Shown in pieces: positions 495 to 53,618 of a DNA stretch of 64,000 nt. Numbering within the stretch: position 1 is the first letter of the stretch; each line of letters begins with the position of its first letter. This stretch comes from an uncultured bacterium. Lineage in GTDB: Bacteria > Patescibacteriota > Minisyncoccia > Phycocordibacterales > GWA1-40-21. The notes beneath the pieces are model-generated. The model worked only from the letters and a program-made list of their open reading frames with translations. It did no database searches and was not told the origin of the DNA. The translations under genes and the position numbers were made by a program. The DNA is taken from the NCBI GenBank assembly GCA_903832855.1, contig CAILDB010000017.1:4992-68991 (forward strand). The letters run 5' to 3'.

Positions 495-562
495 CTGTCA
501 TTCCCGTGAAGACAGGAATCCATCCCCTCTGTCTTTGCGAGGGTATTCCCGAAGCAATCCAG
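495..562. repeat. two hairpin repeat units
   Basis: ctgtcattcccgtgaagacaggaatccatc + ccctctgtctttgcgagggtattcccgaagcaatccag. Confidence 0.7.
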
Positions 563-17006: not shown

Positions 17007-17159
17007 TCTGTCATTGCGAATGCGAAGCATGAAGCAATCCAGAGTTTTTTTAGTGTTTTAGATTGCTTCGGAATACCTCGCAAAGACATAAAAGATGGAT
17101 CCCGTTCTTCAACGGGATGACCCCAGTAGTAAAGAACTCAGAAGTTCTTACTACGGGGC
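17007..17159. repeat. array of hairpin repeat units upstream of dnaK
   Basis: Four units: ctctgtcattgcgaatgcgaagcatgaagcaatccag; gattgcttcggaatacctcgcaaagac; gatggatcccgttcttcaacgggatgac; ccccagtagtaaagaactcagaagttcttactacgggg. Confidence 0.7.
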
Positions 17160-23120: not shown

Positions 23121-23150
23121 CTGTCATTCCTGCGAAGGCAGGAATCCAGG
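23121..23150. repeat. hairpin repeat unit (ctgtcattcctgcgaaggcaggaatccag)
   Basis: Member of the window-wide family. Confidence 0.7.
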
Positions 23151-25281: not shown

Positions 25282-25349
25282 TGTCTTTGCGAGCGGAGCG
25301 AAGCAATCCAGTATAATAGATTGCTTCGGGATTACCCTCGCAAAGACAG
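25282..25349. repeat. composite palindromic hairpin-repeat element filling the aspS-HIT intergenic
   Basis: gtctttgcgagcggagcgaagcaatccag tataatag attgcttcgggattaccctcgcaaagacag. Confidence 0.7.
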
Positions 25350-28626: not shown

Positions 28627-28695
28627 TCTGTCATTCCTGCGAAGGCAAGAATCCAGAGAATCGGGGATGGATCCCGGCCTGCGCCGGGATGACAG
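28627..28695. repeat. two tandem hairpin repeat units
   Basis: tctgtcattcctgcgaaggcaagaatccagag + gatggatcccggcctgcgccgggatgacag. Confidence 0.7.
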
Positions 28696-28981: not shown

Positions 28982-29010
28982 CTGGATTCCCGTATTCACG
29001 GGAATGACAG
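28982..29010. repeat. hairpin repeat unit in the mraY 5' leader (ctggattcccgtattcacgggaatgacag)
   Basis: 11 nt upstream of the mraY ATG. Confidence 0.7.
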
Positions 29011-35980: not shown

Positions 35981-36179
35981 CTGTCATTCCGTTGGAGAAC
36001 GGAATCCATCCCCTCCGTCATTGCGAGTGAAATGTGAGGAAGCAAAAGTATTTGCTTCTGCAAGACTCATTGAGGGCTTTTGTGAGCAAAGCGAAACAAA
36101 AGACCCAATGAGTGGACAGTTTCTGTAAGAAAGCAATCCAGAGAATCAAAGATGGATCCCGGCCTCCGCCGGGATGACA
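35981..36179. repeat. cluster of hairpin units including one split by a ~100-bp nested insertion
   Basis: ctgtcattccgttggagaacggaatccatcc; ccgtcattgcgag[~100 bp]gaaagcaatccagag; gatggatcccggcctccgccgggatgacac. Confidence 0.65.
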
Positions 36180-36188
36180 CGAGGCGCG

Positions 36189-36668
36189 TCATTTCAATCC
36201 TGCACAACCAGAAGCCGGGGTCAAACCTTTGGCTCTAGCTTCTTCTACAGTATTTAAATAAACTTTGTTCTCTTCTTTTATACGAGCGACACCAGAACAC
36301 CAAGTGTAATAATATTTTGTACCAGATTTTGAAGCAACGATACTTCCCTTCTCTGTCACAGTAGTTTGGGATGCTTGAGTCGAAGCAGACTGGATTCCCG
36401 TATTCACGGGAATGACAGATGTGGAGGAAGTTGGATCAATGCCGTTCCACTTATAATATTCCTCCGTCTTTGTCACCGTGATTGGCTCTTTTTGCTTTTC
36501 ATAAGTTGAAAGTCTGCCTAGTGCAAAGGCCAAAGTAGCGGTAAGTAAAAAAACTGCCAAAATAAAAACAACTTCAGGCATTTTGTTCATATCAAAATAG
36601 CTTTTTGCCCTATCAACAAAGTATTTCTTTTGCCACTTGATTTTTTCTTTTAAATCGTTTATACTCAT
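36189..36668 (-). CDS. membrane-anchored protein with a C-terminal domain weakly resembling the Ada N-terminal Zn-binding fold; carries an in-frame hairpin-repeat insertion
   Basis: TM near the N-terminus; C-terminal YYYTWCSGVARIKEENKVYLNTVEEARAKGLTPASGC vs Ada CRPSCRARHALRENVSFYANASEALAAGFRPCKRC; repeat-encoded SVIPVNTGIQ. Confidence 0.45.
   Translation of the reverse strand: MSINDLKEKIKWQKKYFVDRAKSYFDMNKMPEVVFILAVFLLTATLAFALGRLSTYEKQKEPITVTKTEEYYKWNGIDPTSSTSVIPVNTGIQSASTQASQTTVTEKGSIVASKSGTKYYYTWCSGVARIKEENKVYLNTVEEARAKGLTPASGCAGLK
36389..36417. repeat. hairpin repeat unit inside the 36189..36668 CDS
   Basis: ctggattcccgtattcacgggaatgacag; translated in frame as SVIPVNTGIQ on the minus strand. 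Confidence 0.7.
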
Positions 36669-37828: not shown

Positions 37829-37896
37829 TCTGTCATTCCGTTGAAGAACGGAATCCAAAGAATCAGGGATGGATCCCGGCCTACGCCGGGATGACA
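37829..37896. repeat. two tandem hairpin units
   Basis: tctgtcattccgttgaagaacggaatccaaag + gatggatcccggcctacgccgggatgacat. Confidence 0.7.
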
Positions 37897-39566: not shown

Positions 39567-39576
39567 TTTTTTAATA

Positions 39577-39606
39577 CTGGATCCCCGCATTCGCGAGGAT
39601 GACAGA
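39577..39606. repeat. hairpin repeat unit (ctggatccccgcattcgcgaggatgacag)
   Basis: Sits between the stop of the giant gene and the start of the 39210 gene. Confidence 0.7.
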
Positions 39607-39610
39607 GTAA

Positions 39611-42600
39611 TTATACCAATAATTTATCTTTTTTACCACGACGAATAGTAAAAATAAATATAAGATAAATGAGTGCAAGAAAGATTCCGCCGAGCAAAAT
39701 CGTCTGAAAATTAAGCAACCCTAGCAAGCTTGTCTTCGCTTTGAGTTCAATATTGATAAACACACCTTTACCTTCATCCACTTTAAATGGAGCGCCCACA
39801 TAATCAGAGTATGAGTTTGAAATAACTTTGAGCTTGTATGTGCCGACTGGAACAAGGAAAGCATATCTTCCCGTCACATCTGTCGTCTGTGGATTTTGTT
39901 GTCTAAAGTCACTTGACGGCCAGAGTTCATAAGCATTTGTCGCAGGATTTAACCAATCAATAGAAACCAAAGCATTGCTAATGCGTGTCTCCTCTCCATT
40001 ATTTATTTTGTAAACATACCCCTCCGGATCCACAACCACCACCATACTGATTGTTTTTGGTGCAATGTTTGCTTTGTAATTTATAATAGTCCTAAGTTCA
40101 TATGTTCCCAGAGCAAGAGGTGATGCAACTTCCGCAGTCCAAACACCATTTCCGGAATCAATATAATTAAATTTATTTAAAACGAGATCGGTTTGGCTGG
40201 TTGGATAACTACCAACTGTTGTGCCAGAAATTGTCGGGTTATTTTCCATTGCAAAGGCAACGGAAGCGGTCTGAGAAAGACTGGATTGCTTCGCCTTGCT
40301 CGCAATGACAGAAGAAGAAACAGAAGAGACAGAACTGGATTTAAATATCATATAACCCTGCACCGTGCTTGCCTTCCCTTCTGGCTTCACAACAAATTTA
40401 AGTGGCTGACCCTGAATAGTATTGAGAGTTTGTAGAGCAAGCCCAGCGTCTGTAACTGGTAATCCAACAGTATTCACACTCTTTAAATTAATTCCTGCAT
40501 TTGCAATTGATAATTTGACACCCAAATCAATACTTCCATCTGCTGTCTGTGCAAAAATCACATCCGTCGGTATTTGATTAATTTGTTTTTGTGAAAAGTT
40601 TGTCACTGCCACACTTTGTCCTTTTTGCAAACCGGCTATTTCAGAAAGTCCCGGCAATGAAATATTTCCTACGCCACTAAGTTGCGAAACATCACTCATT
40701 TTAGTAATGCCAATTTTTTGTAAAGTTGTAGCAACCACTGGAAATTTATTTACAATGTTTTGAAAATCACTTGGCAGACCTTCAAAAACAAAATTATTTA
40801 TATTATTTGCTATAACTGTCGGCCATTTATTCTGAAATGCAACAGGAGTAACTTGTGGGACAGATTGTGTGATAGGAGGATATGTTACATTCTCATCTTG
40901 ACCTTGTGGTATGACATTTGTAATAATTTTGGTTATTGTGTCTGTTATTGTATTTGTCACTTGTCCTGTCACAGCTTTCGTATTATCTATAACTTCAGTA
41001 ATAAGTGGCACAGCATTTAAAGTAATATTTTGTGAATAAGCAGGAGTCGCTACACCAGAAGGTGAAAGAAATTTTGTGTAAATTGTGTAATTTGCATCAG
41101 GGCAAACAGATTGTCCTTGGCAAAGATTATATTGATAAGTAGAGGTGACATATGGGATGGTCGTAATGTTTGAAAAGTCAGGATTTGTGGACACCACAAC
41201 TGCAGAAGCAGTCCCATATGGGTTTGCAGAGAATTGCAAATTAACCACTCTTTGATCTGTTGAGCCAGCTCCGTTATTTATTGAAAAGGAATATGTTGAA
41301 GTAGCGACTGGTGTAGATGAACCACCTCCCTTACTAACACTGCCATGATGAACGGCTGGAATAGTATATGTCAAATGTGTCGCAGTTCCTGAAGTATCTT
41401 TATTTCCATAAGCATCTTCACAGGCCAAATAAATATTCTTTGTTCCGGCACCTCCAAGGTCAGGTGATGTGCAAGAAATCAAAATGCTATCAGTTACAGA
41501 ACAGCTCGTGTCCCCTGACATCCCGTCATATGATTTTGCTGTAGCACTAGGCGAATATGCCAAACGACAATCCCCTGCTTCACTTAGTGTAAATGTAACA
41601 ACTTGATTATTTGAAATTCTTGAACCATCTACTGGAAGAATATTTGAAATAGTTGGCGCAACAGTTGACCATGTTAGATTGAAAGTGCTTGAAGCAGAGT
41701 TGCTAGCGAGATCAGTAGTAGTGAGAGCAATAACATATGCTCCGTCATCAGTGCCGGCTGATATTGTGGTACTTACGGCAGTGGCTGAACCAAAATTAAT
41801 TGTTCCTGGGCCAGAAACTTTTGACCACAAGTAACTTGCAATACCACTTCCACCATCAGTCGCAGAACCTGTTTGTGTAAATGTCGCTTTCTTGGACTGG
41901 TCTGCACCGGCACTTACAGAAGGCGCCGTCGTATCCCAAGTCAAATTAAATGTGCTTGAAGCGGAATTGCCGGCGAGATCTGTAGCTGTAAGAGAGATGA
42001 GATATGCTCCATCTTGATTTGCTGAAATATTTACGGTCGGCAAAGTTGTGGAACTAAAACTAACTGCTCCCGGTCCAGAAAGTTTGGACCACAAATAGCT
42101 TGCTACTTCGGAAGTAATGTCCGTAGCGGAACCTGTCTGAGAAAATAGTGCATTTTTGACCTTGTCTGCTCCTGCACTGACACTTGGCACGGTATTATCT
42201 ACAGTCACTGTAATAATAGACGAGGTCGCCTGATTTCCTGTACCATCTCGTGCGACAGCAGTGATCTCGTGATTTCCATCGTCAAGAGATGTGGTATCTA
42301 AAGTCGTAGTGTAAGGCGCAATTAGATCTTCTCCACCGATATTTGTACTCCCATCCAGTTTAAATTGAACTCCAGAAACAGATACATCATCAACGGCATT
42401 TGCCGAAACAGTCACAGAATTTCCTCTGACTTTTGCATTATTAGCCGGAGCTGTTACGGAAACCGTTGGAGCTGTAATATCTGCTTGCACAGTGAAAGAT
42501 ATTGTAAATTCGTCACTATTGACATTGCCCACTGCATCACTGCACTTGACATAATATAGATAGGAACCGCCGTTTGAAAGTTCGGAAATAATTGAAGAGT

Positions 42601-45600
42601 GCGTCGTTGTGGCTGTTGTGGTACTAAATAATGTCATACTTGCATATGAAATATTTGTAGCAGAATATTTACAAGTTGCTGGTTCATTTGTAGTCAAAGA
42701 TATCGTGGTTGAAGAAGTATTTAATGCAAGTGTTCCACCTGGTGCTCCACCCGAGCGAACCGGCGGGGAAATATCAATGAGCATAGAAGCAGAGCAAGAA
42801 GAAGTGGCTTGATTGGTTGCCGTATCAATACTTACAATTTTGTATGAATATGTGAGAGCGTCATTTCCGGTAAAATCTCTCGTCTGCAAAGAGTTTGACG
42901 CGAGGTCAATCATACTACCAGATATAGTGTCGCAAGTAGCACCCGTGTAAAATAGAATTTTTTGGTCGGCTAAGTCACCCGAATTGGACTTCGTCCACGA
43001 AGCAGTAACCGCAGTAGTACTAGCTGGAGATGTTTGGGACCAAACAAGAGATGTCGCAGTATTTGGAGCAGTCGTATCCAAAATAAAGTTACCCATACTT
43101 GTCCAAGATGAAGTGGCGACGCCATCATTGTTTTGAGCACACCAATAATATGTGGCATCACTTCCGATAGATGAGCTAGGTGTCCAAGTAGTAGTGGCGT
43201 TGTTAGAAGCAGTTTCTGCAGATGTACCACTATCTACAACCGTGCCACCTGTACAATTTACTGCACTTGATGCAATTCTATAATTAGTAGTACCTACATC
43301 AGCAGTATCTGGGTCAGAATAAATGGCTGATAAAGTGGGCGTGGTGTCTGTGGTATATGAAGCGGTCGTAGGCGAAACCAAAGTCGGAGCATTTGGTGCA
43401 GTGTTAAAATTCCAGTTTGTGTTATTGCCTCCGTTTGTGGAATTGGTTTGGGAAATTAAAGTTCCGCCCGAGGCGTTGGAATAAGCGGCGTTAACATAGC
43501 TGGCCGAGGCAGTGCCGGCGACATTTAGATACCAAGCACTTGCCGGATTCAAAGTCAGTAAAGCTCCGCTGTGTCCCGATGCCGAGAAATTTCCGCCGAC
43601 GGTGATGGTGCTGCCGATGAAGCCGGAGGCGGTCACATTGGCGACGGTGGCGGTGCCAGTATAGTTTGTGTCTGGTGCATAAGAACCCGAAATTGTAGCC
43701 GGAAAACCTCCTGACTTCCACCAGTCGTTACCCGTTGCCACTCCCGGAACCGGAGTAATAATAAATGATAAAGTATCATTTGATACATACCAGTTATCAC
43801 TTCCCCGACGATACTCTGGAATACCATTTCTTAACCCCACATAAGTATACGTCCCTATCGCGTTAGGGTTTAGCGTTCCGCTCACCGTCACTTGGTTATA
43901 ATAAGTGCCGGAAGTATTAGCCAGTCCCGAAGCGGTAATTAAAGCGCCGTCAGAGATGGTGAGATTTCTGGCGCCTGTGGTAGTGATGTTTTTCCCGCCG
44001 GCAGAAAGTGTCCCTGCTGTTACTGCAACGCTCCCCGATGCCACCAAATTATCCTGCAAAGTCCACGCTCCACCCGTCCCATTAAATGTCAGATTATTAA
44101 ATTTAGAATTCGTCGCCCCGCTCGTAATTGTTTTTCCTGTTGCAGTTGAATTAAAAATCACCGTAGAATTATCCGCCACAAACTGCGAAGGTGCGGTGCC
44201 TGTGCCGTAGTTTAGCCAGTTACCGCCGACGGTAACAGTGGAAGTTCTTCCACCTGCCCCCGTGGCGTCCAATTTCTTGAGGGCGGTGTCAGCCCCAACG
44301 CCAATGGTAATGTTACCGCCGATGGTGAGATTATAGCCGTCGGTTTTATAACCAAGTGCTCTTCCTGCTCCACCAGAAATAAAATACATGGATTTTGTTG
44401 TATTAAGGGTAACATTACCAGTTTGAGTTAATATCCCTCCGGGGACATCCACATAGATATCACTACTATAACCATTTACGAGTGCTGGAATTGATTGTGA
44501 TGCAGTTTGTCCATAAAAATAAAGCGACGGTACAGATAGTGTAGAAGCCGCATCAAAACTTAACGGAGTTGCTCCTTTCAAATACATATTACCCGATCCA
44601 GTCAGGATACCAGAACCAATCGTTACATTTGATATTATGCAAATATGTGAAGCCAAAGTTACTGTGTTACCACTTTGTCCAACTGTAAGATTATTAAATC
44701 CGTTATCCCAATAAGTTGGATTATTCCCATACGTCAGCGTATTCGTCCCATTCAGTACTAAGCTCGCCGAGTTGTATTGCGTGGAATCCAGTGTCCCATT
44801 CGCCGTAAATGTCCCATTGCCATTGACGGTGATGGTAGCGGTGCTGGCATTGAAGCGTGAAGTGATAGATGACTGGTCAAAGTTGCCCGATGATAATGTA
44901 ACTTTTGATGCACCTGTTGCCGTTACCACTCCGCCTGCCCCGACTGTCAGTCCTGCGGTAGTCCATCCAGTGTTCCCTGAAATGCCGATAGTGGTAGTGG
45001 CTCCGGTGACAGTAGAAGAACCAGTAACTGTGAGGTCGTTTGTTCCTATTGCAAATGTTCCACCTGAGACCGAGAGATTTCCTCCGACAGATATTGCAGT
45101 CGAGTTTGTAAACGAACCGCCATCTTGAGTGTAATTACCGGAAAGTGTAAATGTTCCGCCAGAAATTGTGCTGTGATTGATAACACTGCCAGTAAATGTT
45201 CCGCCAGAAATAGTGCCGTTATTTGTAACAGTCCCCGCAGAGCAAGTGCCAGATGACGGATAAGTGGCTAAACTGGCCGGGATTTCCGCTGTATAACTGG
45301 CGCTTCCGCAAGGATAACTGCCTGTCCAGTTGGCTCTGTTGGTCAAAACGCCATCTGCTGAACCGTTCCATGTACCATTGCCATCACCAAGTGTCTGCCC
45401 TTCCGAGCCAGCGCCGTTGTTGTAAAGAGTTAAAACATCATCAGCACTTAGGGCGGTGTTGTATATACGGACATCGTCAATGGAGCCAGTGAACCGATAC
45501 AAATTTTTACCTCCAACATATAAATTAGAATTTGAAATCATTTGGCTACTTGGCTGTGCAGCAGTAGCCGTTCCAGAAGGAGTGCCATCAATATAGAACC

Positions 45601-48600
45601 TCATCATATCCGCGTTTGTAGTCCCATTCCACGCAACTGTTATTAGATGCCATCCAGTAGATGTGATTGAATCGCTTGAGAAGTTGTCAATGCTACCGAA
45701 CACACCAGCATTAAATCCAAAGTATATTTTATTATTAGACCATAATCCAAAATCAAAATCGGATTCACCATTATACGTGGCCTCAGCTTTTGATAAGACA
45801 GCACCTAAATGACCCAAGCTTGCAGGATTAACCCAAACTGATAAAGTTAATGCCTTTCCAATCATATTGAGGGAATCCGAGTTTGCCACCACAACCTTAT
45901 CCCCCGTCCCATTAAAACTCATCGCCTTGCCTATTTTCGCAGTAGCCAAAAGGTCTGTGTTTCGTTGAGCTGTTCCTGTGTGTCCGCCAATGCTGTCTGC
46001 CACAGTCGTATTTGTTGAATCATCATTCATCTTGTAATGAGCCACAAGACCAGTTCCCAAAGCCCCTGCTTCACTTTCTGTCCCTGCTCCACTGGCGTAA
46101 AGTGCGTCAATAGCTGTTTGGTCTAAGGCGGTGTTGTAGATACGGACATCATCGATGGAGCCGGGGAAATAATCACCACCAGGGTTTGTTGCACGACCAA
46201 TGGTAAAATTCGCGGCATTAACAATATTCCCGGCAGTATCTACGACTGTGCCACTGCTTATCCCATTAATATAAAACTTGTATAATCCTCCAGTTCTAAC
46301 AAGCGTCACATAATTCCAAGCATTTTTAGTGACCACACTCGTACTATAGCCATAAGGGTTGAAAGTTCCATCATAAGTTTCTACATACAATTGGTTTCCT
46401 CCTCCTGCATTTATATAAGCGAATATGTATCCTGTACCGCCTGATGTAGAAATAATTGCTCTTTTGTATACATCTGCATCAACACTAGGTTTAATCCAAG
46501 CCGATAAAGAAAAATCCCCTGTCCCAAATTGCAAAGAAGAAGGATTCCCAGCATCCACATAATCACTCGTCCCATTAAAACTCAAAGCACTGCCGATTTT
46601 TGAGGTAGTCATAATAGAAGTGTTTGTCGCCGATGTTCCTGTATTTGAACCAACGCTATCTGCAACAACAAGCGAAGCTGCGTCATCATTCATTGTGTAA
46701 TGAGCCACAAGACCGCTCCCCAAATTCGCCGGAGTTAAATAGCGGACAATCACGATACCGGAACCGCCGTTTCCGCCAGGAAAACCATTCCACATTCCGC
46801 CGCCGCCGCCGCCCGTGTTGGGAGTGCCAGCCGTCCCGCCATAATCTCCTCCTGCTCCGCCCCCGCCGAGTCCTCCGCTACCGGGAGTCGTTTGCCCTGC
46901 ACCGCCGCCACCGCCTCCGTATACGGCAGATATGCCGGACAATTGATTGGACATCCCTGCTCCGCCGTTGCCACCGACTTGGGACGTGCTTGCAGTATCT
47001 CCGTTGGTAGATGCCCCACCACCGCCGCCGCCTTTCTGTGCATAATTGTTGTTTCCGCCAGCAAAACCCTGCCCATTTGTTGCACTGCCACCAACCGTGT
47101 TGCCGCCCCACGACCCACCAGCTCCACCACCCGAACCTCCTGGAAATCCGTTACCATTCTTTCCACCCGCACCACCCCCAAAGGCAGTAAGACCCGCAAA
47201 AACAGAGTTGGAACCGTCGCTCGCGTCTACGGGACTACTTAGCCAGCCCCTTCCCCCTGCGCCGACAATAACTGGATATTCTCCCGTCACCGCCAAACTG
47301 CCTGTCAGTACCCCGCCTCCACCACCGCCTCCTACACTACCTCCACCGCCACCCGCCACCACCAACACATCAGCAGAAGTAACTCCTGTTGGCAGAGTTA
47401 ATGTTGTAGTTCCAACAGTTGTATATGTACAAACAGTGTAAAGCGGGTCGTCGGGCGCGGTAGCGCAAACCGGGTCAACAATATAGTCAATGTCTACGTT
47501 GCCTGAGATTTTTAAATCAAAAACATCTGTGGGAGTTTGTAAATTTTGTAAAAGTATTCGGTATTTGCCGTCTTCAGAAATATTTTCAAAAGTTGGATTT
47601 GTGCCGTCGGAAACTGTTTCCAGCATTTGACCTTGGGTTTGATTTCCATCTTCATCGGTATAAACAGGATAAACCTCAACACTTGCTGATTGACCATTAT
47701 TTGTTGATTTTGCGTAAACCGTAATATCTTTTGTCTCATCCAAAATCTTTTGGAAAGTAACACGAACATAGTTTCCATTTGGTACAGTGGCATAATCTTT
47801 GTCTTGTGTTGCAACTATGTCATAAATATCATTAATAATTTCTTTGTTTTGGTCTAACTCAAAGGCTTTTGAAATAAAGATAATTTCAAAAGTTTGTGTT
47901 GAGAGGTGCGGGACAGTCCATTCTACATAGTCCAGTTTGCCATTGCTGTTGAGGTCATAGGCGTGGAATGTAACATTCTGGTCGCCATTATTTGTCCATT
48001 TAATTTTGATTTTTGATTCTTGACCTACTTTGTAAATTTCGGGGATGTTGGTAAAGGCGAGGACATTGGTGAGGTGCTCGGGTCCCGAGGTTGCCGAGGG
48101 ACCAGCTATTTCTGGTGCAGAAACCTGAACTATTTTTCCTGTGTCTGTGTTTGCTTCTGCAATAGTTGGAGCTGGGGTTTCGTATGATACAAGGACGGTG
48201 GAAGATGAAACGGATTCGGAAGGAGTTGAAGAGGACTGGATTGCTTCGCTTGTGCTCGCAATGACAGAAGAAGAAACAGAGGAAGTCGAAGAGGGATGGA
48301 TCCCGACCTCCGTCGGGATGACAGAATCAGAAGAGGAAGCAGAGGAAGTCCCCGCTCCCGTATTGTCATTCCGTTGAAGAACGGAATCCATCCCCGATTC
48401 CTGTGATGATGTTGCAGATGAAGTAGAAACAAATGAAGAGATATCGAGATTTAGAATTGGGAGTGATGTGGCCTGCCCCGTTAGAAGTAGGCTACTTGTA
48501 GCCGTTAGTTCTAATGGGGTGGAGGAAAATTGATCTGTAGAAGAAGATGGGGAGGACTGGATTCCTGCCTCCGCAGGAATGACAGAGGAGTCCTTGTCCT

Positions 48601-49270
48601 TCTTTTCTGTCTTGTCTGCTTTTTCTACTTTATCTTTTTTGTTTGAATCCTTTGATAAAGTGTCGGAGGACTGGATTGCTTCGTCTTCACTCGCAATGAC
48701 GGAAGAGTCGGGTATCTGCGTACTGAGGTCTATGATGACAGTATCGGGAGCTTGGTCACCTGAAAGTGCTTCGTCAACAGTTGCAAACATTTTTCCCATT
48801 TTTGAAAAGATATTTTGAAAGAAAGCAAAAAAACCTTTTGCATTTTTTTGCTTGATTGATTTTGCAAGTGCAAGAGATGCTGATGAGCTGGCTCTCTGAC
48901 TCGCGAGTTCTGATAATTTTATTCTGTCTGCGTTTGTGAGATTCCCCGACTTGGACATGGCATGTCCAAGTGCAGTGGTTGTGGAAATTTTTACATTATC
49001 TGCAACTTTCGGAATTACTAAAAGATGCTGATTTGAATTTATGCTAACTGTCTTTACCCATTTTATTGGCTCTCCGGGGACTGACGGAAGCTGACTTGTA
49101 ATAGTGCCTTTGACGAGAGCAACATTATTATCTTGAGAATTATTTGAAAGGCTTGAAAAATCAGATATCTTGTAGACAGCAAAAATCAAAGCCACCAATA
49201 CCACAGCGACACCCAAAACCACTAGAGTTTTTTTGAGACCAGATTTTTTATAAATTTCCTCTTGCTCCAT
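39611..49270 (-). CDS. giant (3219 aa) cell-surface protein
   Basis: Single 9.66-kb ORF with TM anchors at both ends. In N-to-C order: Ser-rich linker carrying hairpin-repeat insertions; Gly-rich domain; two laminin-G/ConA-like domains (DDVRIYNTAL x2); beta-helix-like T/S/G/N-rich region; Ig-like domains; two tandem PKD domains (SAGADQ...SYLWSK.SGPG); CarboxypepD_reg-like domain. Confidence 0.85.
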   Translation of the reverse strand: MEQEEIYKKSGLKKTLVVLGVAVVLVALIFAVYKISDFSSLSNNSQDNNVALVKGTITSQLPSVPGEPIKWVKTVSINSNQHLLVIPKVADNVKISTTTALGHAMSKSGNLTNADRIKLSELASQRASSSASLALAKSIKQKNAKGFFAFFQNIFSKMGKMFATVDEALSGDQAPDTVIIDLSTQIPDSSVIASEDEAIQSSDTLSKDSNKKDKVEKADKTEKKDKDSSVIPAEAGIQSSPSSSTDQFSSTPLELTATSSLLLTGQATSLPILNLDISSFVSTSSATSSQESGMDSVLQRNDNTGAGTSSASSSDSVIPTEVGIHPSSTSSVSSSVIASTSEAIQSSSTPSESVSSSTVLVSYETPAPTIAEANTDTGKIVQVSAPEIAGPSATSGPEHLTNVLAFTNIPEIYKVGQESKIKIKWTNNGDQNVTFHAYDLNSNGKLDYVEWTVPHLSTQTFEIIFISKAFELDQNKEIINDIYDIVATQDKDYATVPNGNYVRVTFQKILDETKDITVYAKSTNNGQSASVEVYPVYTDEDGNQTQGQMLETVSDGTNPTFENISEDGKYRILLQNLQTPTDVFDLKISGNVDIDYIVDPVCATAPDDPLYTVCTYTTVGTTTLTLPTGVTSADVLVVAGGGGGSVGGGGGGGVLTGSLAVTGEYPVIVGAGGRGWLSSPVDASDGSNSVFAGLTAFGGGAGGKNGNGFPGGSGGGAGGSWGGNTVGGSATNGQGFAGGNNNYAQKGGGGGGASTNGDTASTSQVGGNGGAGMSNQLSGISAVYGGGGGGAGQTTPGSGGLGGGGAGGDYGGTAGTPNTGGGGGGMWNGFPGGNGGSGIVIVRYLTPANLGSGLVAHYTMNDDAASLVVADSVGSNTGTSATNTSIMTTSKIGSALSFNGTSDYVDAGNPSSLQFGTGDFSLSAWIKPSVDADVYKRAIISTSGGTGYIFAYINAGGGNQLYVETYDGTFNPYGYSTSVVTKNAWNYVTLVRTGGLYKFYINGISSGTVVDTAGNIVNAANFTIGRATNPGGDYFPGSIDDVRIYNTALDQTAIDALYASGAGTESEAGALGTGLVAHYKMNDDSTNTTVADSIGGHTGTAQRNTDLLATAKIGKAMSFNGTGDKVVVANSDSLNMIGKALTLSVWVNPASLGHLGAVLSKAEATYNGESDFDFGLWSNNKIYFGFNAGVFGSIDNFSSDSITSTGWHLITVAWNGTTNADMMRFYIDGTPSGTATAAQPSSQMISNSNLYVGGKNLYRFTGSIDDVRIYNTALSADDVLTLYNNGAGSEGQTLGDGNGTWNGSADGVLTNRANWTGSYPCGSASYTAEIPASLATYPSSGTCSAGTVTNNGTISGGTFTGSVINHSTISGGTFTLSGNYTQDGGSFTNSTAISVGGNLSVSGGTFAIGTNDLTVTGSSTVTGATTTIGISGNTGWTTAGLTVGAGGVVTATGASKVTLSSGNFDQSSITSRFNASTATITVNGNGTFTANGTLDSTQYNSASLVLNGTNTLTYGNNPTYWDNGFNNLTVGQSGNTVTLASHICIISNVTIGSGILTGSGNMYLKGATPLSFDAASTLSVPSLYFYGQTASQSIPALVNGYSSDIYVDVPGGILTQTGNVTLNTTKSMYFISGGAGRALGYKTDGYNLTIGGNITIGVGADTALKKLDATGAGGRTSTVTVGGNWLNYGTGTAPSQFVADNSTVIFNSTATGKTITSGATNSKFNNLTFNGTGGAWTLQDNLVASGSVAVTAGTLSAGGKNITTTGARNLTISDGALITASGLANTSGTYYNQVTVSGTLNPNAIGTYTYVGLRNGIPEYRRGSDNWYVSNDTLSFIITPVPGVATGNDWWKSGGFPATISGSYAPDTNYTGTATVANVTASGFIGSTITVGGNFSASGHSGALLTLNPASAWYLNVAGTASASYVNAAYSNASGGTLISQTNSTNGGNNTNWNFNTAPNAPTLVSPTTASYTTDTTPTLSAIYSDPDTADVGTTNYRIASSAVNCTGGTVVDSGTSAETASNNATTTWTPSSSIGSDATYYWCAQNNDGVATSSWTSMGNFILDTTAPNTATSLVWSQTSPASTTAVTASWTKSNSGDLADQKILFYTGATCDTISGSMIDLASNSLQTRDFTGNDALTYSYKIVSIDTATNQATSSCSASMLIDISPPVRSGGAPGGTLALNTSSTTISLTTNEPATCKYSATNISYASMTLFSTTTATTTHSSIISELSNGGSYLYYVKCSDAVGNVNSDEFTISFTVQADITAPTVSVTAPANNAKVRGNSVTVSANAVDDVSVSGVQFKLDGSTNIGGEDLIAPYTTTLDTTSLDDGNHEITAVARDGTGNQATSSIITVTVDNTVPSVSAGADKVKNALFSQTGSATDITSEVASYLWSKLSGPGAVSFSSTTLPTVNISANQDGAYLISLTATDLAGNSASSTFNLTWDTTAPSVSAGADQSKKATFTQTGSATDGGSGIASYLWSKVSGPGTINFGSATAVSTTISAGTDDGAYVIALTTTDLASNSASSTFNLTWSTVAPTISNILPVDGSRISNNQVVTFTLSEAGDCRLAYSPSATAKSYDGMSGDTSCSVTDSILISCTSPDLGGAGTKNIYLACEDAYGNKDTSGTATHLTYTIPAVHHGSVSKGGGSSTPVATSTYSFSINNGAGSTDQRVVNLQFSANPYGTASAVVVSTNPDFSNITTIPYVTSTYQYNLCQGQSVCPDANYTIYTKFLSPSGVATPAYSQNITLNAVPLITEVIDNTKAVTGQVTNTITDTITKIITNVIPQGQDENVTYPPITQSVPQVTPVAFQNKWPTVIANNINNFVFEGLPSDFQNIVNKFPVVATTLQKIGITKMSDVSQLSGVGNISLPGLSEIAGLQKGQSVAVTNFSQKQINQIPTDVIFAQTADGSIDLGVKLSIANAGINLKSVNTVGLPVTDAGLALQTLNTIQGQPLKFVVKPEGKASTVQGYMIFKSSSVSSVSSSVIASKAKQSSLSQTASVAFAMENNPTISGTTVGSYPTSQTDLVLNKFNYIDSGNGVWTAEVASPLALGTYELRTIINYKANIAPKTISMVVVVDPEGYVYKINNGEETRISNALVSIDWLNPATNAYELWPSSDFRQQNPQTTDVTGRYAFLVPVGTYKLKVISNSYSDYVGAPFKVDEGKGVFINIELKAKTSLLGLLNFQTILLGGIFLALIYLIFIFTIRRGKKDKLLV
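40281..40312. repeat. hairpin repeat unit inside the giant gene (C-terminal region)
   Basis: ctggattgcttcgccttgctcgcaatgacag, giving SVIASKAKQS in frame. Confidence 0.7.
48236..48395. repeat. array of four hairpin units inside the giant gene N-terminal linker
   Basis: Encodes SVIASTSEAIQ, SVIPTEVGIH and, in inverse orientation, MDSVLQRND, all in frame. Confidence 0.7.
48557..48585. repeat. hairpin unit inside the giant gene
   Basis: ctggattcctgcctccgcaggaatgacag, giving SVIPAEAGIQ. Confidence 0.7.
48671..48700. repeat. hairpin unit inside the giant gene
   Basis: ctggattgcttcgtcttcactcgcaatgac, giving SVIASEDEAIQ. Confidence 0.7.
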
Positions 49271-49415
49271 TTTTGTATGCTTCTATTTTATAAAGAAATA
49301 AACAGCAAGTCAACCATTTTTTACCAAATTTACCCCTAAGTAATTATCCACAGTTTTTTCGCTTGACAATGTTCCGAGGTTTGCTATACTTGCACTATCA
49401 CGACGAAAGAGGTTC

Positions 49416-49943
49416 TCAAAGGGTTCCATCCCGACGAGAGCCTTTTTCATTTATATATTCTATTTTATTCTTCTGTTCAGAAACAAAGGTAAGTATATTA
49501 TTGTCAACACTACCTAACTTTTTGAATAAAGCTGAATAATTTTTATTTGGGACAAGTAATTGTTCTAATTTATTATTTTTTATCAAATATTCAACTAAGC
49601 AGTAAAAATCTCCATCTCCAGAGACAATAACCGCTTTATCAAAATTATTAAACTCAATCATTGTGTGCAAAACTAACTCGGCATCAACATTACCTTTAAC
49701 CTTCCCATTTAATAATTCTAAAGTCGGTTTAAAAACACAGATGTAACCAGCATCTTGGAGAAATGAATATAAAGATTCGTTACCTAGTTTGTATCCAATA
49801 AATAAATACGCTTTTGAAACAGAATATTTATCTTTCATGAAGATCCTTAGTTTTCTCCAATCAATTTTCCAACCCAAAGATTTAATTCCTAGGTTAAGAT
49901 TTTGACTATCTATAAAAGCATAATTATTTTCTTTCGATTTCAT
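49416..49943 (-). CDS. NYN-domain (LabA-like, PIN-like) putative ribonuclease
   Basis: AFIDSQNL ... KAYLFIG ... IVSGDGDFYCLVEYL conserved acidic motifs of the NYN fold. Confidence 0.65.
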   Translation of the reverse strand: MKSKENNYAFIDSQNLNLGIKSLGWKIDWRKLRIFMKDKYSVSKAYLFIGYKLGNESLYSFLQDAGYICVFKPTLELLNGKVKGNVDAELVLHTMIEFNNFDKAVIVSGDGDFYCLVEYLIKNNKLEQLLVPNKNYSALFKKLGSVDNNILTFVSEQKNKIEYINEKGSRRDGTL

Positions 49944-50947: not shown

Positions 50948-50978
50948 ATTAACCCTTTAAAGTTTTTACTGATACATT

Positions 50979-51233
50979 ATGCAATATGTCTATGTGTTAC
51001 AAAGTAAAATGGATGGTGGTTTATACACTGGTTGCACGAATAACTTGAAAAGTAGGTTCATATTGCATAATGCGAAAAAAGTTGATTCTACTGCAAAACG
51101 AACTCCATTTGTGCTAATATACTATGAAGCATACATAAATAGTCACGATGCATATAACCGCGAGAAGTATATGAAGACACAATATGGCAAGAATTATTTG
51201 AAAAAGGTTTTGTCCAACTTTTTTAATCAGTAA
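50979..51233 (+). CDS. GIY-YIG nuclease-family small protein
   Basis: YVYVLQSKMDGGLYTGCTNNLKSRFILHN is the GIY-YIG core; 84 aa. Confidence 0.7.
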   Translation: MQYVYVLQSKMDGGLYTGCTNNLKSRFILHNAKKVDSTAKRTPFVLIYYEAYINSHDAYNREKYMKTQYGKNYLKKVLSNFFNQ

Positions 51234-51249
51234 AAATTTTTTAGGGTAA

Positions 51250-52770
51250 ATGTTTAACTTTCTCAAATCTAAAAAAGTTGTCTTTCTCTATAATACTCTT
51301 TCCAGAAAAAAAGAGGTTTTTAGACCTATTAAAAAAGGTCAGGTGAAATTTTATCAATGTGGACCGACAGTTTATTGGACTCAACATATTGGCAACATGC
51401 GTGCATTTGTTTTGTCTGATTTTATGCGTCGTTCTCTTTCATATCTTGGATACAAAGTAACTTTTATAAGAAATTATACTGATGTCGGACATCTGACTTC
51501 CGATAGTGATGTGGGCGAAGACAAAATGGAAAAAGCCGTAAAAAGAGAAGGTGGAAGTCCAAAGGAAATTGCCGATAAATACACAAAGATTTTTGAAAGT
51601 GATACAAATGATTTGAATATTTTAGAGCCGGATTTCAAACCTCGTGCTACAGAATTTGTTGCAGATATTATTGATTCAGTTGGAATTTTAATTAAAAAAG
51701 GATTCGCCTACCCTACCGATCTTGCAATTTATTTTGATATTTCAAAAGCAAAAGATTACACCAAACTTTCCGGACAAAATCTGGAAGAAAATAAAAGTGG
51801 CGCAGGAAATGCTGAAGTTGAAGATAAACAGAAAAGAAATCCTGCCGATTTTGCTCTGTGGTTTTTCAAAGCAGGAAAGCACGCAAATGCTTTGCAATTT
51901 TGGCCATCACCTTTTACTTCTTCACTTGTTAAAAACGGCGAAGGTTTCCCTGGCTGGCACATAGAATGTTCTGTAATGGTCAAAAAACTTCTTGGAAATA
52001 CGATAGATATTCATATGGGCGGAGTAGAACACATTCCTGTTCATCACACAAATGAAATAGCTCAAAGCGAAGCACTCAATGGTGTTACTTTTGTAAATTA
52101 TTGGCTACATAATGAATGGCTTATGGCAGATGGCGGAAAAATATCTAAATCAGTTGGCACAGCATTTAGTTTATCCGATTTGAAGGAAAAAAGTTTTAAT
52201 CCTCTGGTCTTGCGATATTTCTTTATGCAGGCACATTATCGTTCCAAACAAAACTTTACTTGGGAGGCACTTGAAGGTGCGAGGAACGGTTACGAACATT
52301 TGATAAATCAAATCTCTGTCATTGCGAGCAAAGCGAAGCAATCCAGTCTTCTTCTGTCATCCCGGCGCAGGCCGGGATCCATCTCCTCCTCTGTCATTGC
52401 GAGTGAAACGAAGCAATCCATCGGCCATACTGACCCCACTTTCAAAACCAAATTTTCTAAAATAATCGGTGATGACTTTGGTATTTCCCAAGCACTCGCA
52501 CTTCTTCAGGAAGTCTTGAAATCAGACATTCCAAAAGAAAATAAACTTGCGACTATTTACGATTTTGATAAAGTTCTTGGACTGGATTTACAAAAGGCCG
52601 CCGAACTTTCTGAAAATATTCCCGACGAAATCATAAAACTTGCAGAAGAAAGAAAACTCGCCCGCTCCGACAAAAACTGGTCAAAATCCGACGAACTCCG
52701 CGACAAAATAGCATCTCTTGGTTATGAAATCAAAGATTCTTCTGCTGGATACGAAATTTCTAAAAAGTAG
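51250..52770 (+). CDS. cysS: cysteinyl-tRNA synthetase (with a 39-aa repeat-derived in-frame insertion)
   Basis: YQCGPTVYWTQHIGNMR (HIGH) and KISKSVG (KMSKS); 506 aa including the SVIASKAKQSSLLLSSRRRPGSISSSVIASETKQSI insert. Confidence 0.9.
   Translation: MFNFLKSKKVVFLYNTLSRKKEVFRPIKKGQVKFYQCGPTVYWTQHIGNMRAFVLSDFMRRSLSYLGYKVTFIRNYTDVGHLTSDSDVGEDKMEKAVKREGGSPKEIADKYTKIFESDTNDLNILEPDFKPRATEFVADIIDSVGILIKKGFAYPTDLAIYFDISKAKDYTKLSGQNLEENKSGAGNAEVEDKQKRNPADFALWFFKAGKHANALQFWPSPFTSSLVKNGEGFPGWHIECSVMVKKLLGNTIDIHMGGVEHIPVHHTNEIAQSEALNGVTFVNYWLHNEWLMADGGKISKSVGTAFSLSDLKEKSFNPLVLRYFFMQAHYRSKQNFTWEALEGARNGYEHLINQISVIASKAKQSSLLLSSRRRPGSISSSVIASETKQSIGHTDPTFKTKFSKIIGDDFGISQALALLQEVLKSDIPKENKLATIYDFDKVLGLDLQKAAELSENIPDEIIKLAEERKLARSDKNWSKSDELRDKIASLGYEIKDSSAGYEISKK
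52314..52430. repeat. three tandem hairpin units inside cysS
   Basis: ctctgtcattgcgagcaaagcgaagcaatccag + tcttcttctgtcatcccggcgcaggccgggatccatc + tcctcctctgtcattgcgagtgaaacgaagcaatccatc. Confidence 0.75.
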
Positions 52771-52996: not shown

Positions 52997-53611
52997 CTAT
53001 TTCCTATTTCCTATCGCGCTTTTGATAGTGTCAGAGTCGGAGTATTCGAGCTCGGTGCCGGTGGAGAGGCCGCGGCCGAGCGTGGTTATTTTGAGGGCAA
53101 ATTTTGTAGCGAGGGGCGTAAGAGTTCGTTTGATGTATTCTTCGGTGTATTCGCCTTCGGTATTTGCATCCAAACCAAGAATTATTTCTTTCAGACCGTT
53201 TTGAGACATTTTTTCCGCGTGAGCGAGAAGTTCTTTTATTCTAATCCTATGTTCCGGTTCCTTATCCAGAATCGGAATTGTTCCACCGACTACAAAATAC
53301 CTCCCTTTGTATCCTCCACTCCTTTCTACATTTTCAAAGTCAACATCACGAGAAACCACAAGAAGTTCAGAAATATCTCTGTTTTTATTTCCACAAATTT
53401 TGCAGATTTTTTCATCTGTCTCCGAATTAAAATATCTAAAACATTCGCTGCAAATTTTTGTCTGTCTCTTCAAATCAGCAAAAAGCTTTGAAATTTCCTC
53501 AACATAACCTCTAGGCCGAGTAAGTAAAAAATAAACGAACCTTTTTGCCTGTTTCGGTCCTATCCCCGGAAATTCAGAAAATATTTTAATAAGTTTTTGT
53601 GATGGGTCCAT
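52997..53611 (-). CDS. recR: recombination protein RecR
   Basis: HhH FPGIGPKQAKRF, C4 zinc finger CSECFRYFNSETDEKICKIC, Toprim domain; start taken at MDPSQKL (the track ORF is extended into dnaB). Confidence 0.85.
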   Translation of the reverse strand: MDPSQKLIKIFSEFPGIGPKQAKRFVYFLLTRPRGYVEEISKLFADLKRQTKICSECFRYFNSETDEKICKICGNKNRDISELLVVSRDVDFENVERSGGYKGRYFVVGGTIPILDKEPEHRIRIKELLAHAEKMSQNGLKEIILGLDANTEGEYTEEYIKRTLTPLATKFALKITTLGRGLSTGTELEYSDSDTIKSAIGNRK

Positions 53612-53618
53612 ATCAATA

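What the first reader, a model, noticed from the sequence alone, without database searches (positions are those of the whole stretch)
48236..48700. Giant protein N-terminal linker is built from repeat units in both orientations
The giant CDS contains, in frame, SVIASEDEAIQ, SVIPAEAGIQ, MDSVLQRND (opposite orientation), SVIPTEVGIH and SVIASTSEAIQ, separated by Ser/Thr-rich filler. A sixth unit (SVIASKAKQS) lies near the C-terminus at 40281. Copy-number change in these arrays would lengthen or shorten the surface stalk without frameshifting, a possible length or antigenic variation mechanism.
Basis: partly seen in the sequence, partly recalled or inferred. Interest (0 to 1): 0.6.

Follow-up and report, generated by a model that had tools for sequence, protein, structure and literature searches.

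The report
DNA hairpin repeats translated inside genes
The "protein repeat units" in the stalk of this giant surface protein are copies of a small DNA hairpin repeat (the NTS/SRM type known from Neisseria) scattered across the genome. They are translated where they sit in DNA coding for floppy linkers, and nothing found here shows them acting as a length-switching array.

Summary
All six units sit in frame in the 3219-aa ORF (39611-49270, minus strand) at the stated coordinates, and one is inverted.

They are not protein-level repeats and not an array. They belong to about 27 copies per 64 kb of a 26-29 nt DNA hairpin, TCT-GTCAT-stem-loop-stem-ATCCAG. Seventeen copies are intergenic. Three lie in frame in cysteinyl-tRNA synthetase and one in a small membrane protein.

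Stems differ between copies but stay complementary: 98% of positions are paired and 4 of 8 pairs show compensatory changes. A model built only from these units finds 16 NTS repeats around gonococcal ssnA. The units therefore belong to the NTS / Ssn-related-motif class (Chenal et al. 2025), the hairpins recognised by Ssn GIY-YIG ssDNA nucleases.

The five N-terminal units fall in a predicted disordered linker. Homologous surface proteins carry 0-8 such units in linkers of 75-231 aa.

No tandem array exists, and the linker is identical in every recovered copy of the protein (40 or more contigs).

The window's own 84-aa GIY-YIG gene is a different, non-canonical subfamily. Canonical SRM-flanked ssnA is seen only in relatives.

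Verdict: a new, unusually gene-invading instance of a known repeat class, of moderate interest.

The parts
39611..49270 (-). Giant surface-protein ORF (3219 aa). Layout: TM anchor, small N-terminal domain, disordered linker (about aa 185-355), beta-sandwich, Gly-rich, 2x LamG, Ig-like/PKD domains, C-terminal TM.
48672..48700 (-). Type-2 hairpin unit, sense orientation, read as (S)VIASEDEAIQ (aa 191-200)
   Evidence: (17 bits)
48558..48583 (-). Type-1 hairpin unit (stem ATTCCTGC/GCAGGAAT), sense orientation, read as (S)VIPAEAGIQ
   Evidence: (50.8 bits)
48365..48390 (+). Type-1 hairpin unit (stem ATTCCGTT/AACGGAAT), antisense to the gene, read as MDSVLQRND. It is followed by the conserved spacer TCCCCGATTC seen in the intergenic composite pairs.
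   Evidence: 48.7 bits
48297..48322 (-). Type-1 hairpin unit (stem ATCCCGAC/GTCGGGAT), sense orientation, read as (S)VIPTEVGIH
   Evidence: (51.1 bits)
48237..48265 (-). Type-2 hairpin unit, sense orientation, read as (S)VIASTSEAIQ. It shares a 15-nt upstream flank, TCTGTTTCTTCTTCT, with the copy at 40282.
   Evidence: (20.6 bits)
40282..40309 (-). Type-2 hairpin unit in a Ser-rich inter-domain linker near the C-terminus, read as (S)VIASKAKQS (aa 2988-)
39578..39603 (-). Type-1 unit 8 nt downstream of the giant gene's stop codon. Contains a T.G wobble that is also found in relatives.
52318..52345 (+). Type-2 unit in frame in CysRS (VIASKAKQS)
52356..52381 (+). Type-1 unit in CysRS, read in a different frame (SSRRRPGSI)
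52393..52420 (+). Type-2 unit in frame in CysRS (VIASETKQS)
36391..36416 (-). Type-1 unit in frame (SVIPVNTGIQ) in the variable linker of a 159-aa membrane-anchored protein (36189-36668)
497..560 (+). Intergenic cluster: type-1 unit (497-522) followed by a type-2-like unit (531-560)
17010..17121 (.). Intergenic cluster upstream of dnaK: type-2 unit (17010-17041, +), type-2-like unit (17060-17087, -), type-1 unit (17096-17121, -)
23123..23148 (+). Intergenic type-1 unit
25283..25347 (.). Intergenic pair of type-2-like units (25283-25309 +, 25318-25347 -)
28630..28693 (.). Composite element: two type-1 units tail-to-tail (28630-28655 +, 28668-28693 -) with the 12-nt spacer GAGAATCGGGGA
28983..29008 (-). 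Intergenic type-1 unit just upstream of mraY
35983..36051 (+). Intergenic type-1 unit (35983-36008) followed by a degenerate type-2 unit (36017-36051)
36153..36178 (-). Intergenic type-1 unit
37832..37895 (.). Composite element: two type-1 units tail-to-tail (37832-37857 +, 37870-37895 -) with the spacer AAGAATCAGGGA, upstream of the S41 peptidase gene
50979..51233 (+). 84-aa single-domain GIY-YIG nuclease ORF with its own roughly 24-nt terminal inverted repeats (about 50951-51246). It is only a distant paralogue of SsnA and is not SRM-flanked, so its link to the hairpins is uncertain.

Best explanation
The units are copies of a dispersed family of small DNA hairpin repeats of the NTS / Ssn-related-motif (SRM) class.

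Anatomy:
- A pyrimidine-rich lead-in ending in TCT.
- An invariant GTCAT.
- Either an 8-bp stem with a 4-nt loop (type 1) or a two-tier stem ATTGC-GA-[2-4 bp]-loop-GAA-GCAAT (type 2).
- A closing ATCCA(G).

In Neisseria this class is bound on single-stranded DNA, in one orientation only, by the 94-aa GIY-YIG nuclease SsnA, which cuts a few nucleotides upstream.

In this small Patescibacteria (CPR) genome the family has expanded to about 27 copies per 64 kb. With only about 13% non-coding DNA, copies persist in spacers and in coding DNA where extra residues do no harm: disordered Ser/Thr-rich linkers and a variable surface loop of CysRS.

Most reading frames of the unit are open. Only the antisense frame containing TGA, from the invariant ATGAC, is always closed. 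The ribosome therefore reads straight through and produces SVIPxxxGIQ, SVIASxxKQS or (L/M)DSxLxxND.

The giant protein's linker is a permissive dumping ground that has grown partly by such insertions. It is not an engineered repeat array.

Shown: the identity, structure, dispersal and in-frame placement of the units; their insertion relative to orthologues; and the stability of the linker across assemblies.

Inferred: that an Ssn-type nuclease of this organism recognises them, and how they spread.
For: - Census: 16 type-1 copies against 0 expected, plus about 11 type-2 copies, on both strands across the window.
- Hairpin covariation: type 1 is 98.4% paired, 4 of 8 pairs carry compensatory changes, and 0 of 500 shuffles reach this. 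Pairing collapses to 17-56% when the partner is slid. In type 2 the inner helix covaries. Type-1 units fold as DNA at -6.8 to -9.1 kcal/mol.
- Class identity: the consensus equals the published NTS, CGTCATTCCCGCGMAVGCGGGAATCYRG, apart from compensatory stem changes. The published SRM string hits 6 copies against 0.09 expected. Covariance model R1, built only from window units, hits 16 NTS copies in 3.3 kb around gonococcal ssnA at up to 41.5 bits.
- Nuclease link in relatives: related CPR genomes carry a 94-95-aa GIY-YIG gene that is 58% identical to gonococcal SsnA (E 3e-39). It is flanked on both sides by these hairpins.
- Insertions: the three-unit block in CysRS replaces a 6-residue loop and is absent from 79 of 80 orthologues. 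The unit in the 159-aa protein sits in a hypervariable linker.
- Tolerance: all five N-terminal units lie in residues 185-355, which have pLDDT mostly below 50 and no secondary structure, between folded domains.
- Distribution: 10 of 27 copies are in coding sequence although 87% of the DNA is coding.
- Generality: homologous surface proteins elsewhere carry the same peptides and hairpins in their linkers.
- Frames.
Against: - None of the six units in the giant gene matches the published SRM search string exactly. Their stem compositions differ, and type 2 is a different hairpin design.
- The only GIY-YIG gene in the window is not a canonical Ssn. It is 31% identical to SsnA over 64 residues, lacks the C-terminal helix, has no flanking hairpins, and its homologues elsewhere are not SRM-flanked. 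A cognate nuclease in this genome is therefore not demonstrated.
- 9 of 10 coding copies are in the sense orientation, and 8 of 9 of those use the GTC=Val frame. The MDSxLQxNDNTG unit recurs with its flanks in several homologues. Selection on the peptide, or a target preference for TCY serine codons, is acting as well. Those codons make up 66% of linker Ser codons against 36% elsewhere.
- No insertion mechanism is known for this repeat class.
Confidence: 0.8

Rival explanations
1. Protein-level repeat array for stalk-length or antigenic variation. The units are functional peptide modules whose number changes by slippage or recombination without frameshift.
For: The units are in frame. The same-type direct copies share a frame, so recombination between them would stay in frame: 48672 and 48237 are 435 nt apart, 48558 and 48297 are 261 nt apart. 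Unit number differs among homologous proteins.
Against: - There is no tandem array.
- The same DNA unit is abundant in non-coding DNA, occurs in another frame in CysRS, and sits in unrelated proteins.
- Conservation is at the level of base pairing, not of the peptide.
- The linker is identical in all cluster members and on 40 or more contigs from several assemblies.
Confidence: 0.05
2. REP/MITE-type elements mobilised by a transposase, such as a RAYT / IS200-IS605 Y1 transposase or another enzyme, with no connection to Ssn nucleases.
For: They are short dispersed hairpins, clustered in mosaic groups like BIMEs/NIMEs. There is insertion polymorphism relative to orthologues. No canonical ssnA lies in the window.
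Against: - No transposase or Y1 domain was found in the ORFs of the window that were scanned.
- The units lack the GTAG head of REPs and carry the GTC...C signature of NTS instead.
- They are found flanking SsnA-like genes in relatives, and they match gonococcal NTS.
Confidence: 0.08
3. RNA-level elements. The hairpins act in the mRNA, for example as stability elements, RNase sites or translational pause sites, and that is why most coding copies are in the sense orientation.
For: 9 of 10 coding copies place the GTCAT strand in the mRNA. A T.G (U.G) wobble is tolerated on that strand in several genomes. Stable 8-bp stems form.
Against: - Intergenic copies show no orientation bias (6 against 6 for type 1).
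- There is no Rfam match.
- SsnA acts on ssDNA and not on RNA.
- The sense bias is largely explained by the closed antisense frame and by peptide tolerance.
Confidence: 0.07

Closest known systems
NTS / dRS3 repeats of Neisseria and 'Ssn-related motifs' (SRM), the recognition hairpins of SsnA GIY-YIG ssDNA endonucleases (Chenal et al., Nat Commun 2025, PMC11893778)
   Same: - Almost the same consensus: GTCATTCC-stem-loop-stem-GGAATCCAG.
- An oriented hairpin with a conserved 5' GTC and a 3' C.
- Hundreds of copies per Mb.
- Clustering in mosaics and near surface-protein genes.
- In related CPR genomes the hairpins flank an SsnA-like gene on both sides.
- A model built from the window units detects gonococcal NTS.
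   Different: - About 37% of copies lie inside genes, in frame and translated. The paper reports 2% for N. meningitidis.
- Stems are more varied, and a second two-tier hairpin design (type 2) is not covered by the published search string.
- The host is a Patescibacteria genome, a group the paper does not mention.
- No canonical ssnA lies in this window.
Rickettsia palindromic elements (RPEs): selfish palindromic repeats inserted in frame in protein-coding genes (Ogata et al. 2000; reviewed in PMC10969869)
   Same: A dispersed palindromic repeat is inserted in frame into unrelated genes, including housekeeping enzymes. It is tolerated at surface loops and linkers and adds a passenger peptide.
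   Different: RPEs are about 100-150 bp, are unrelated in sequence, and encode about 30-50 residues. The units here are 26-29 nt (9-11 residues) and belong to the NTS/SRM class, which has a known protein partner.
REP/BIME elements with RAYT transposases
   Same: Short extragenic hairpins with a conserved 5' head, clustered in alternating orientations. The partner enzyme gene is flanked by the repeats.
   Different: REPs have a GTAG head and a Y1 transposase partner and are essentially extragenic. Here the head is GTCAT, the partner in relatives is a GIY-YIG nuclease, and many copies are intragenic.
Tandem-repeat contingency loci in surface proteins
   Same: Repeated in-frame units in a surface-protein stalk.
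   Different: There is no head-to-tail array, the units are non-identical and in mixed orientation, and no length polymorphism is seen.

Membership tests
NTS / Ssn-related motif (SRM) hairpin repeats | An oriented hairpin: conserved 5' (H)GTC head, a semi-palindromic stem, and a conserved C just after the palindrome | tested here: met
   GTCAT and ATCCA are invariant in 16 of 16 type-1 copies. The 8-bp stem is 98.4% paired, with 4 pairs showing compensatory changes.
NTS / Ssn-related motif (SRM) hairpin repeats | Match to the published degenerate SRM search string HGTCWYN(0-2)YYVSBRHN(0-5)WNVSBRGN(0-2)RNCYNB | tested here: inconclusive
   6 of about 27 window copies match, against 0.09 expected. 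None of the six units in the giant gene does: their stems (TCCTGC, CCCGAC, TCCGTT) and the type-2 design fall outside the string.
NTS / Ssn-related motif (SRM) hairpin repeats | Sequence and structure similarity to bona fide Neisseria NTS copies | tested here: met
   Covariance model R1, built from window units only, hits 16 copies in 3.3 kb around gonococcal ssnA at 25.7-41.5 bits.
NTS / Ssn-related motif (SRM) hairpin repeats | Many copies per genome, far above shuffled expectation | tested here: met
   16 type-1 matches against 0.00 expected. About 344 copies per Mb here against about 18 per Mb in 1.29 Mb of related loci.
NTS / Ssn-related motif (SRM) hairpin repeats | Association with an Ssn (cd10448-type) GIY-YIG gene flanked by the repeats | tested here: inconclusive
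   Met in the relatives L003 and L006: a 94-95-aa gene, 58% identical to gonococcal SsnA, with hairpins within about 20 nt on both sides. Not met within this 64-kb window. The rest of the genome was not available.
NTS / Ssn-related motif (SRM) hairpin repeats | Binding and cleavage by the cognate Ssn on the GTCAT strand of ssDNA only | not testable with these tools
   This is a biochemical assay.
Ssn nuclease family (for the window's GIY-YIG ORF 50979-51233) | Single-domain GIY-YIG protein under 150 aa with the catalytic Tyr/Tyr/Arg/Glu residues | tested here: met
   84 aa. PF01541 covers residues 2-72, E 5e-14. Y5, Y16, R25 and E62 are present.
Ssn nuclease family (for the window's GIY-YIG ORF 50979-51233) | BLASTP E below 1e-10 with at least 75% coverage to Neisseria SsnA (the paper's operational criterion) | tested here: not met
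   31% identity over 64 residues (68% of SsnA). E is 6e-10 even for a single pairwise comparison. There is no tblastn hit in the collection that holds the gonococcal chromosomes.
Ssn nuclease family (for the window's GIY-YIG ORF 50979-51233) | SRM within 500 bp on both sides of the gene | tested here: not met
   The nearest units are 1085 bp downstream and 2279 bp upstream. Homologues in L090-L094 have none either.
Rickettsia palindromic elements | A palindromic repeat inserted in frame into unrelated protein-coding genes | tested here: met
   Giant protein x6, CysRS x3, 159-aa protein x1.
Rickettsia palindromic elements | An element of about 100-150 bp belonging to the RPE sequence families | tested here: not met
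   The units are 26-29 nt. This is a functional analogy only.
REP elements with RAYT | A GTAG-headed hairpin, with a Y1 transposase (RAYT) gene flanked by the repeats | tested here: not met
   The head is GTCAT. No Y1 or other transposase domain was found in the ORFs of the window that were scanned. Only 64 kb was examined.
Tandem-repeat length-variable surface protein locus | A head-to-tail array of near-identical units, with length polymorphism between strains | tested here: not met
   TRF finds no such array. Residues 1-1153 are identical in all cluster members except M161L. Read-level data were not available.

The most novel reading that the evidence does not exclude
In compact CPR genomes, NTS/SRM hairpins and their pyrimidine-rich (TCY = Ser) flanks would be a main raw material from which the disordered Ser-rich stalks of surface proteins are built and lengthened.

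Their position inside and just after the giant adhesin gene (N-terminal linker, C-terminal linker, 8 nt past the stop codon) would recreate the Neisseria 'NTS-gene-NTS' logic within an ORF. Incoming homologous single-stranded DNA of this gene would be cut by an Ssn nuclease during natural transformation. The translated hairpins would then double as in-gene marks that control allelic exchange of surface-protein modules.
Probability: 0.12. Interest if true: 0.65.

Novelty: new member of a known kind. Interest (0 to 1): 0.4.

Why it matters
- It identifies the SVIPxxAGIQ, VIASxxKQS and LDSxLRxND peptides seen here, in the giant protein, CysRS, a small membrane protein and homologous CPR surface proteins, as translated NTS/SRM DNA hairpins rather than protein motifs. 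This matters for annotation, for homology searches and for domain-boundary calls.
- It extends the recently described Ssn/NTS system to Patescibacteria. There, more than a third of copies sit inside genes, even an essential tRNA synthetase. That gives a second clear case, after Rickettsia RPEs, of selfish palindromes contributing residues to proteins.
- It gives concrete substrates (type-1 and type-2 units) and candidate enzymes (canonical SsnA-like, and the 84-89-aa GIY-YIG family) for testing Ssn specificity.

Tried and rejected
- Tandem repeats: Tandem Repeats Finder over the whole giant gene found no unit-length array.
- Strain variants: the metagenome scan with the N-terminal 620 aa found only distant homologues, at most 64% identity on fragments. 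The exact-sequence and cluster look-ups found only identical or contig-truncated copies. A 461-aa CysRS cluster member turned out to be a C-terminal truncation that still carries the insert.
- Orthologous giant gene: it is absent from all 80 related loci. The 10.7-kb block holding it is inserted between the S41 peptidase and CorA genes, so no orthologue comparison of this exact linker was possible.
- Window GIY-YIG as the cognate Ssn: rejected as unproven. It is a distinct subfamily and is not SRM-flanked here or in five other loci.
- Rfam: no family at gathering threshold anywhere in the window.
- tRNAs: none in the window.
- Transposases: none found in the ORFs of the window that were scanned.
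- Extending the contig: one look-up returned no DNA and one protein was not on record. L089 added only 6 kb, without another GIY-YIG gene.
- Supplements of the Ssn paper: not held. The Neisseria SsnA sequence was recovered instead from a gonococcal chromosome mislabelled as a plasmid.
Full report
**1. What is there**

The finding lies in a 3219-aa ORF on the minus strand (39611-49270). The protein carries a Gly-rich domain, two LamG domains and Ig/PKD-like domains.

- 48672-48700: SVIASEDEAIQ
- 48558-48583: SVIPAEAGIQ
- 48365-48390: MDSVLQRND. The DNA unit is on the opposite strand.
- 48297-48322: SVIPTEVGIH
- 48237-48265: SVIASTSEAIQ
- 40282-40309: SVIASKAKQS

**2. The repeated thing is a DNA hairpin, and it is spread across the window**

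At nucleotide level every unit has the form (TCT)GTCAT-[stem]-[loop]-[stem']-ATCCA(G). A pattern search finds the same form all over the window on both strands. There are two designs.
- Type 1: 16 copies of GTCATYCY-N10-RGRATCCA, against 0.00 expected in 100 shuffles.
- Type 2: about 11 copies of GTC(A/T)TTGCGA-[2-4 bp inner stem + loop]-GAAGCAATCC.

That makes about 27 copies in 64 kb.

The type-1 stems differ between copies: TCCTGC/GCAGGA, CCCGGC/GCCGGG, TCCGTT/AACGGA, CCCGAC/GTCGGG, TCCCGT/ACGGGA. They nevertheless stay complementary.
- 98.4% of cells are paired.
- 4 of 8 pairs show changes on both sides (25 cells).
- 0 of 500 shuffles reach this.
- Pairing falls to 17-56% when the partner is slid by 1-3 columns.

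The type-2 inner helix also covaries (GC/GC, GT/AC, GG/CC, ATGC/GCAT), while its outer helix is invariant. Type-1 units fold as single-stranded DNA at -6.8 to -9.1 kcal/mol. Type 2 folds more weakly.

Upstream of GTCAT, TCT is nearly fixed and the preceding 10 nt or so are pyrimidine-rich.

Units often come in mosaics:
- A type-1 unit followed 8 nt later by a type-2 unit (497/531, 35983/36017, 17096/17060).
- Two type-1 units tail-to-tail around a conserved 12-nt spacer, TCCCYGATTCTY (28630/28668, 37832/37870).

The inverted unit in the giant gene carries that same spacer.

**3. Where the copies sit**

About 87% of the window is coding. Only 10 of 27 copies are in coding sequence, so the family is strongly depleted there (binomial p about 1e-8). 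The start of the 126-aa ORF overlapping the copy at 39578 is probably over-called, so that copy is counted as intergenic.

The ten coding copies are:
- Six in the giant protein.
- Three in cysteinyl-tRNA synthetase at 52318-52420...NQI-SVIASKAKQSS-LLL-SSRRRPGSI-SSS-VIASETKQS-IGH....
- One in the linker of a 159-aa membrane-anchored protein: SVIPVNTGIQ.

The middle CysRS unit is read in a different frame (SSRRRPGSI). This shows that the peptide is incidental.

Translating the units in all six frames gives the following:
- The two antisense frames without TGA are always open.
- At least two of the three sense frames are always open. The third is closed in some type-1 stem/loop variants.
- One antisense frame is always closed by TGA, which comes from the invariant ATGAC.

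Nine of the ten coding copies are in the sense orientation. Eight of those nine use the GTC=Val frame.

**4. The coding copies are insertions at tolerant sites**

The window comes from a Patescibacteria (CPR, Paceibacteria-like) genome. The best CysRS matches among 185,579 species representatives are at most 65% identical and are all CPR MAGs.

- CysRS. In an alignment of 80 CysRS orthologues, the window's 35-residue three-unit block replaces a 6-residue loop (consensus ...IS-SLGDKI-GK...) between the catalytic and anticodon-binding parts. It is absent from 79 orthologues. One distant orthologue (L043) has its own single type-2 unit at the same loop. Other lineages have unrelated insertions there.
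- 159-aa protein. Its unit lies in a linker that is hypervariable among 12 orthologues.
- Giant gene. It has no orthologue at this position. In relatives the S41 peptidase gene abuts CorA-CysRS, whereas the window has a 10.7-kb block (39210-49943) inserted there.

The giant protein's N-terminal module (TM helix, small domain, linker, beta-sandwich) is shared with at least 78 CPR surface proteins that have varied C-termini.

An AlphaFold2 model built on 47 sequences gives confident folds for residues 13-156 and 357-600. Residues about 185-355 have pLDDT mostly below 50 with no secondary structure. All five N-terminal units (aa 191-345) lie in that segment.

In 21 homologues with both anchor blocks, the linker is 75-231 aa and carries 0 to about 8 hairpin-derived peptides, such as SVIPVKTGIQ, SVIPDLIGNP, MDSRLRENDN and WIPASAGMT. 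The covariance model finds the hairpins in the DNA of two such genes, one inside a loop of the folded domain.

The linker's serine codons are 66% TCT/TCC, against 36% in the rest of the protein. This fits pyrimidine-rich unit flanks or a preference for such targets.

**5. What they are**

A full-text search for the unit sequence led to Chenal et al. 2025 (PMC11893778). That paper defines the Neisseria Transformation Sequence, CGTCATTCCCGCGMAVGCGGGAATCYRG, which contains the classical dRS3 repeat, and the broader 'Ssn-related motifs' (SRM). It shows the following:
- The 94-aa single-domain GIY-YIG protein SsnA binds the hairpin on single-stranded DNA.
- Binding is in one orientation only, and there is no binding to RNA or dsDNA.
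- SsnA cuts a few nucleotides upstream.
- ssnA genes are typically flanked by the repeats.

The window's type-1 consensus is that sequence, apart from compensatory stem changes.

Tests run here:
- The published SRM string hits 6 window copies against 0.09 expected, though none in the giant gene.
- A covariance model built only from the 16 window units finds 16 NTS copies, at up to 41.5 bits, in a 3.3-kb gonococcal locus.
- That locus surrounds a 94-aa ORF with Y6, Y17 and E64, exactly as in the paper.
- Two related CPR genomes (L003, L006) have a 94-95-aa GIY-YIG gene between dnaB and recR. It is 58% identical to the gonococcal protein (E 3e-39) and has these hairpins directly on both sides.

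The units therefore belong to the NTS/SRM class, and the canonical repeat-nuclease pair exists in this lineage.

Density here is about 344 per Mb, against about 18 per Mb in 1.29 Mb of related loci. This is a local expansion.

The paper reports only 2% of NTS inside genes in N. meningitidis. It does not mention Patescibacteria or in-frame copies. No paper in the library links the two.

**6. What is not shown**

The window does contain a GIY-YIG gene (50979-51233, 84 aa, PF01541 E 5e-14). It is a different subfamily.
- It is 31% identical to gonococcal SsnA over 64 residues (E 6e-10 pairwise).
- It is 40-48% identical to the CPR SsnA-like genes.
- It lacks the C-terminal KKWNRxWK...NPxW segment.
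- It is not flanked by hairpins here or in five other loci.

The cognate nuclease of this genome was therefore not seen. Only about 70 kb of the genome could be read. How such hairpins spread is unknown in the literature too.

**7. The variation hypothesis**

- There is no tandem array.
- The exact 3219-aa protein is on record on 40 contigs, and the index lists it in 54 blocks of the collection.
- The three other members of its 90% cluster are identical through residue 1153 apart from M161L. Their other differences are contig-end truncations.
- The CysRS insert is likewise invariant.
- No closer strain variants were found.

Read-level data were not available.

**8. Comparison and verdict**

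- The closest known system is NTS/SRM-Ssn: same element class, in a new host group, with a much higher intragenic fraction and an extra hairpin design.
- The closest known behaviour is that of Rickettsia palindromic elements, which insert in frame into unrelated genes (PMC10969869). Those are 100-150 bp and unrelated in sequence.
- REP/RAYT elements and contingency-locus repeats fail their defining features.

The finding is a real and instructive case of selfish DNA hairpins being translated in permissive linkers. It is not a new kind of system and not a demonstrated variation device.

Noticed in passing
window 50951-51246 (ORF 50979-51233); also L090, L092, L093, L094, L095 at 4975-5285: The 84-aa GIY-YIG ORF is enclosed by imperfect terminal inverted repeats of about 24 nt: ACCCKTTAAAGTTTTTRCTRAYRCATT-ATG ... 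TTAWYAGYAAAAATTTTYTMGGGTAA. The right end abuts the ATG of the next gene in all six loci: cysS, dnaJ, a T2SS ATPase gene, a pilin gene, an RNase H-like gene and one other. Two identical copies lie on one 733-kb contig. The CorA-CysRS gap is 23-82 bp in relatives against 303 bp here. There are 226 homologues at 60-89% identity. It looks like a compact mobile GIY-YIG cassette that targets gene starts.
   Followed up: partly
window 28735-28950; second copy at L089:3115-3252: A core of about 140 nt (TTTTGCGTCCGCAGGCGAGCTTGCA...CCGGCTGGGGAAAATTTCTGCACAAAA) lies between two hairpin units. It recurs at 93% identity elsewhere in the same genome. Each copy is enclosed by a 25-30-nt inverted repeat whose sequence is entirely different in the two copies. 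This suggests a structured RNA or a small MITE. There is no Rfam match.
   Followed up: partly
window 39210-49943 and 52997-54998: Relative to at least 10 related genomes, the block holding the 126-aa ORF, the giant gene and the NYN-domain gene is inserted between the S41 peptidase and CorA genes, and the dnaB-recR pair is inverted. In L003 and L006 the SsnA-like gene with its flanking hairpins sits between dnaB and recR.
   Followed up: partly
L018 (CysRS orthologue, same loop as window 52318-52420): Another lineage carries a different insertion at the same CysRS loop (FNLPALPTGQAGRAGNSD). It looks like the translation of a different GC-rich palindromic repeat, so this loop may be a recurrent landing site.
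   Followed up: no
window 23310-23576 versus 55071-56090: The 88-aa ORF resembles the N-terminal part of a RhuM-family protein. A full-length RhuM gene (339 aa) lies at 55071-56090. The short ORF is possibly a truncated duplicate.
   Followed up: no
plasmids collection, NZ_CP119140.1 and NZ_CP119142.1: Two 2.17-Mb Neisseria gonorrhoeae records in the plasmid collection are evidently whole chromosomes labelled as plasmids. This was useful here as a source of ssnA and NTS.
   Followed up: no
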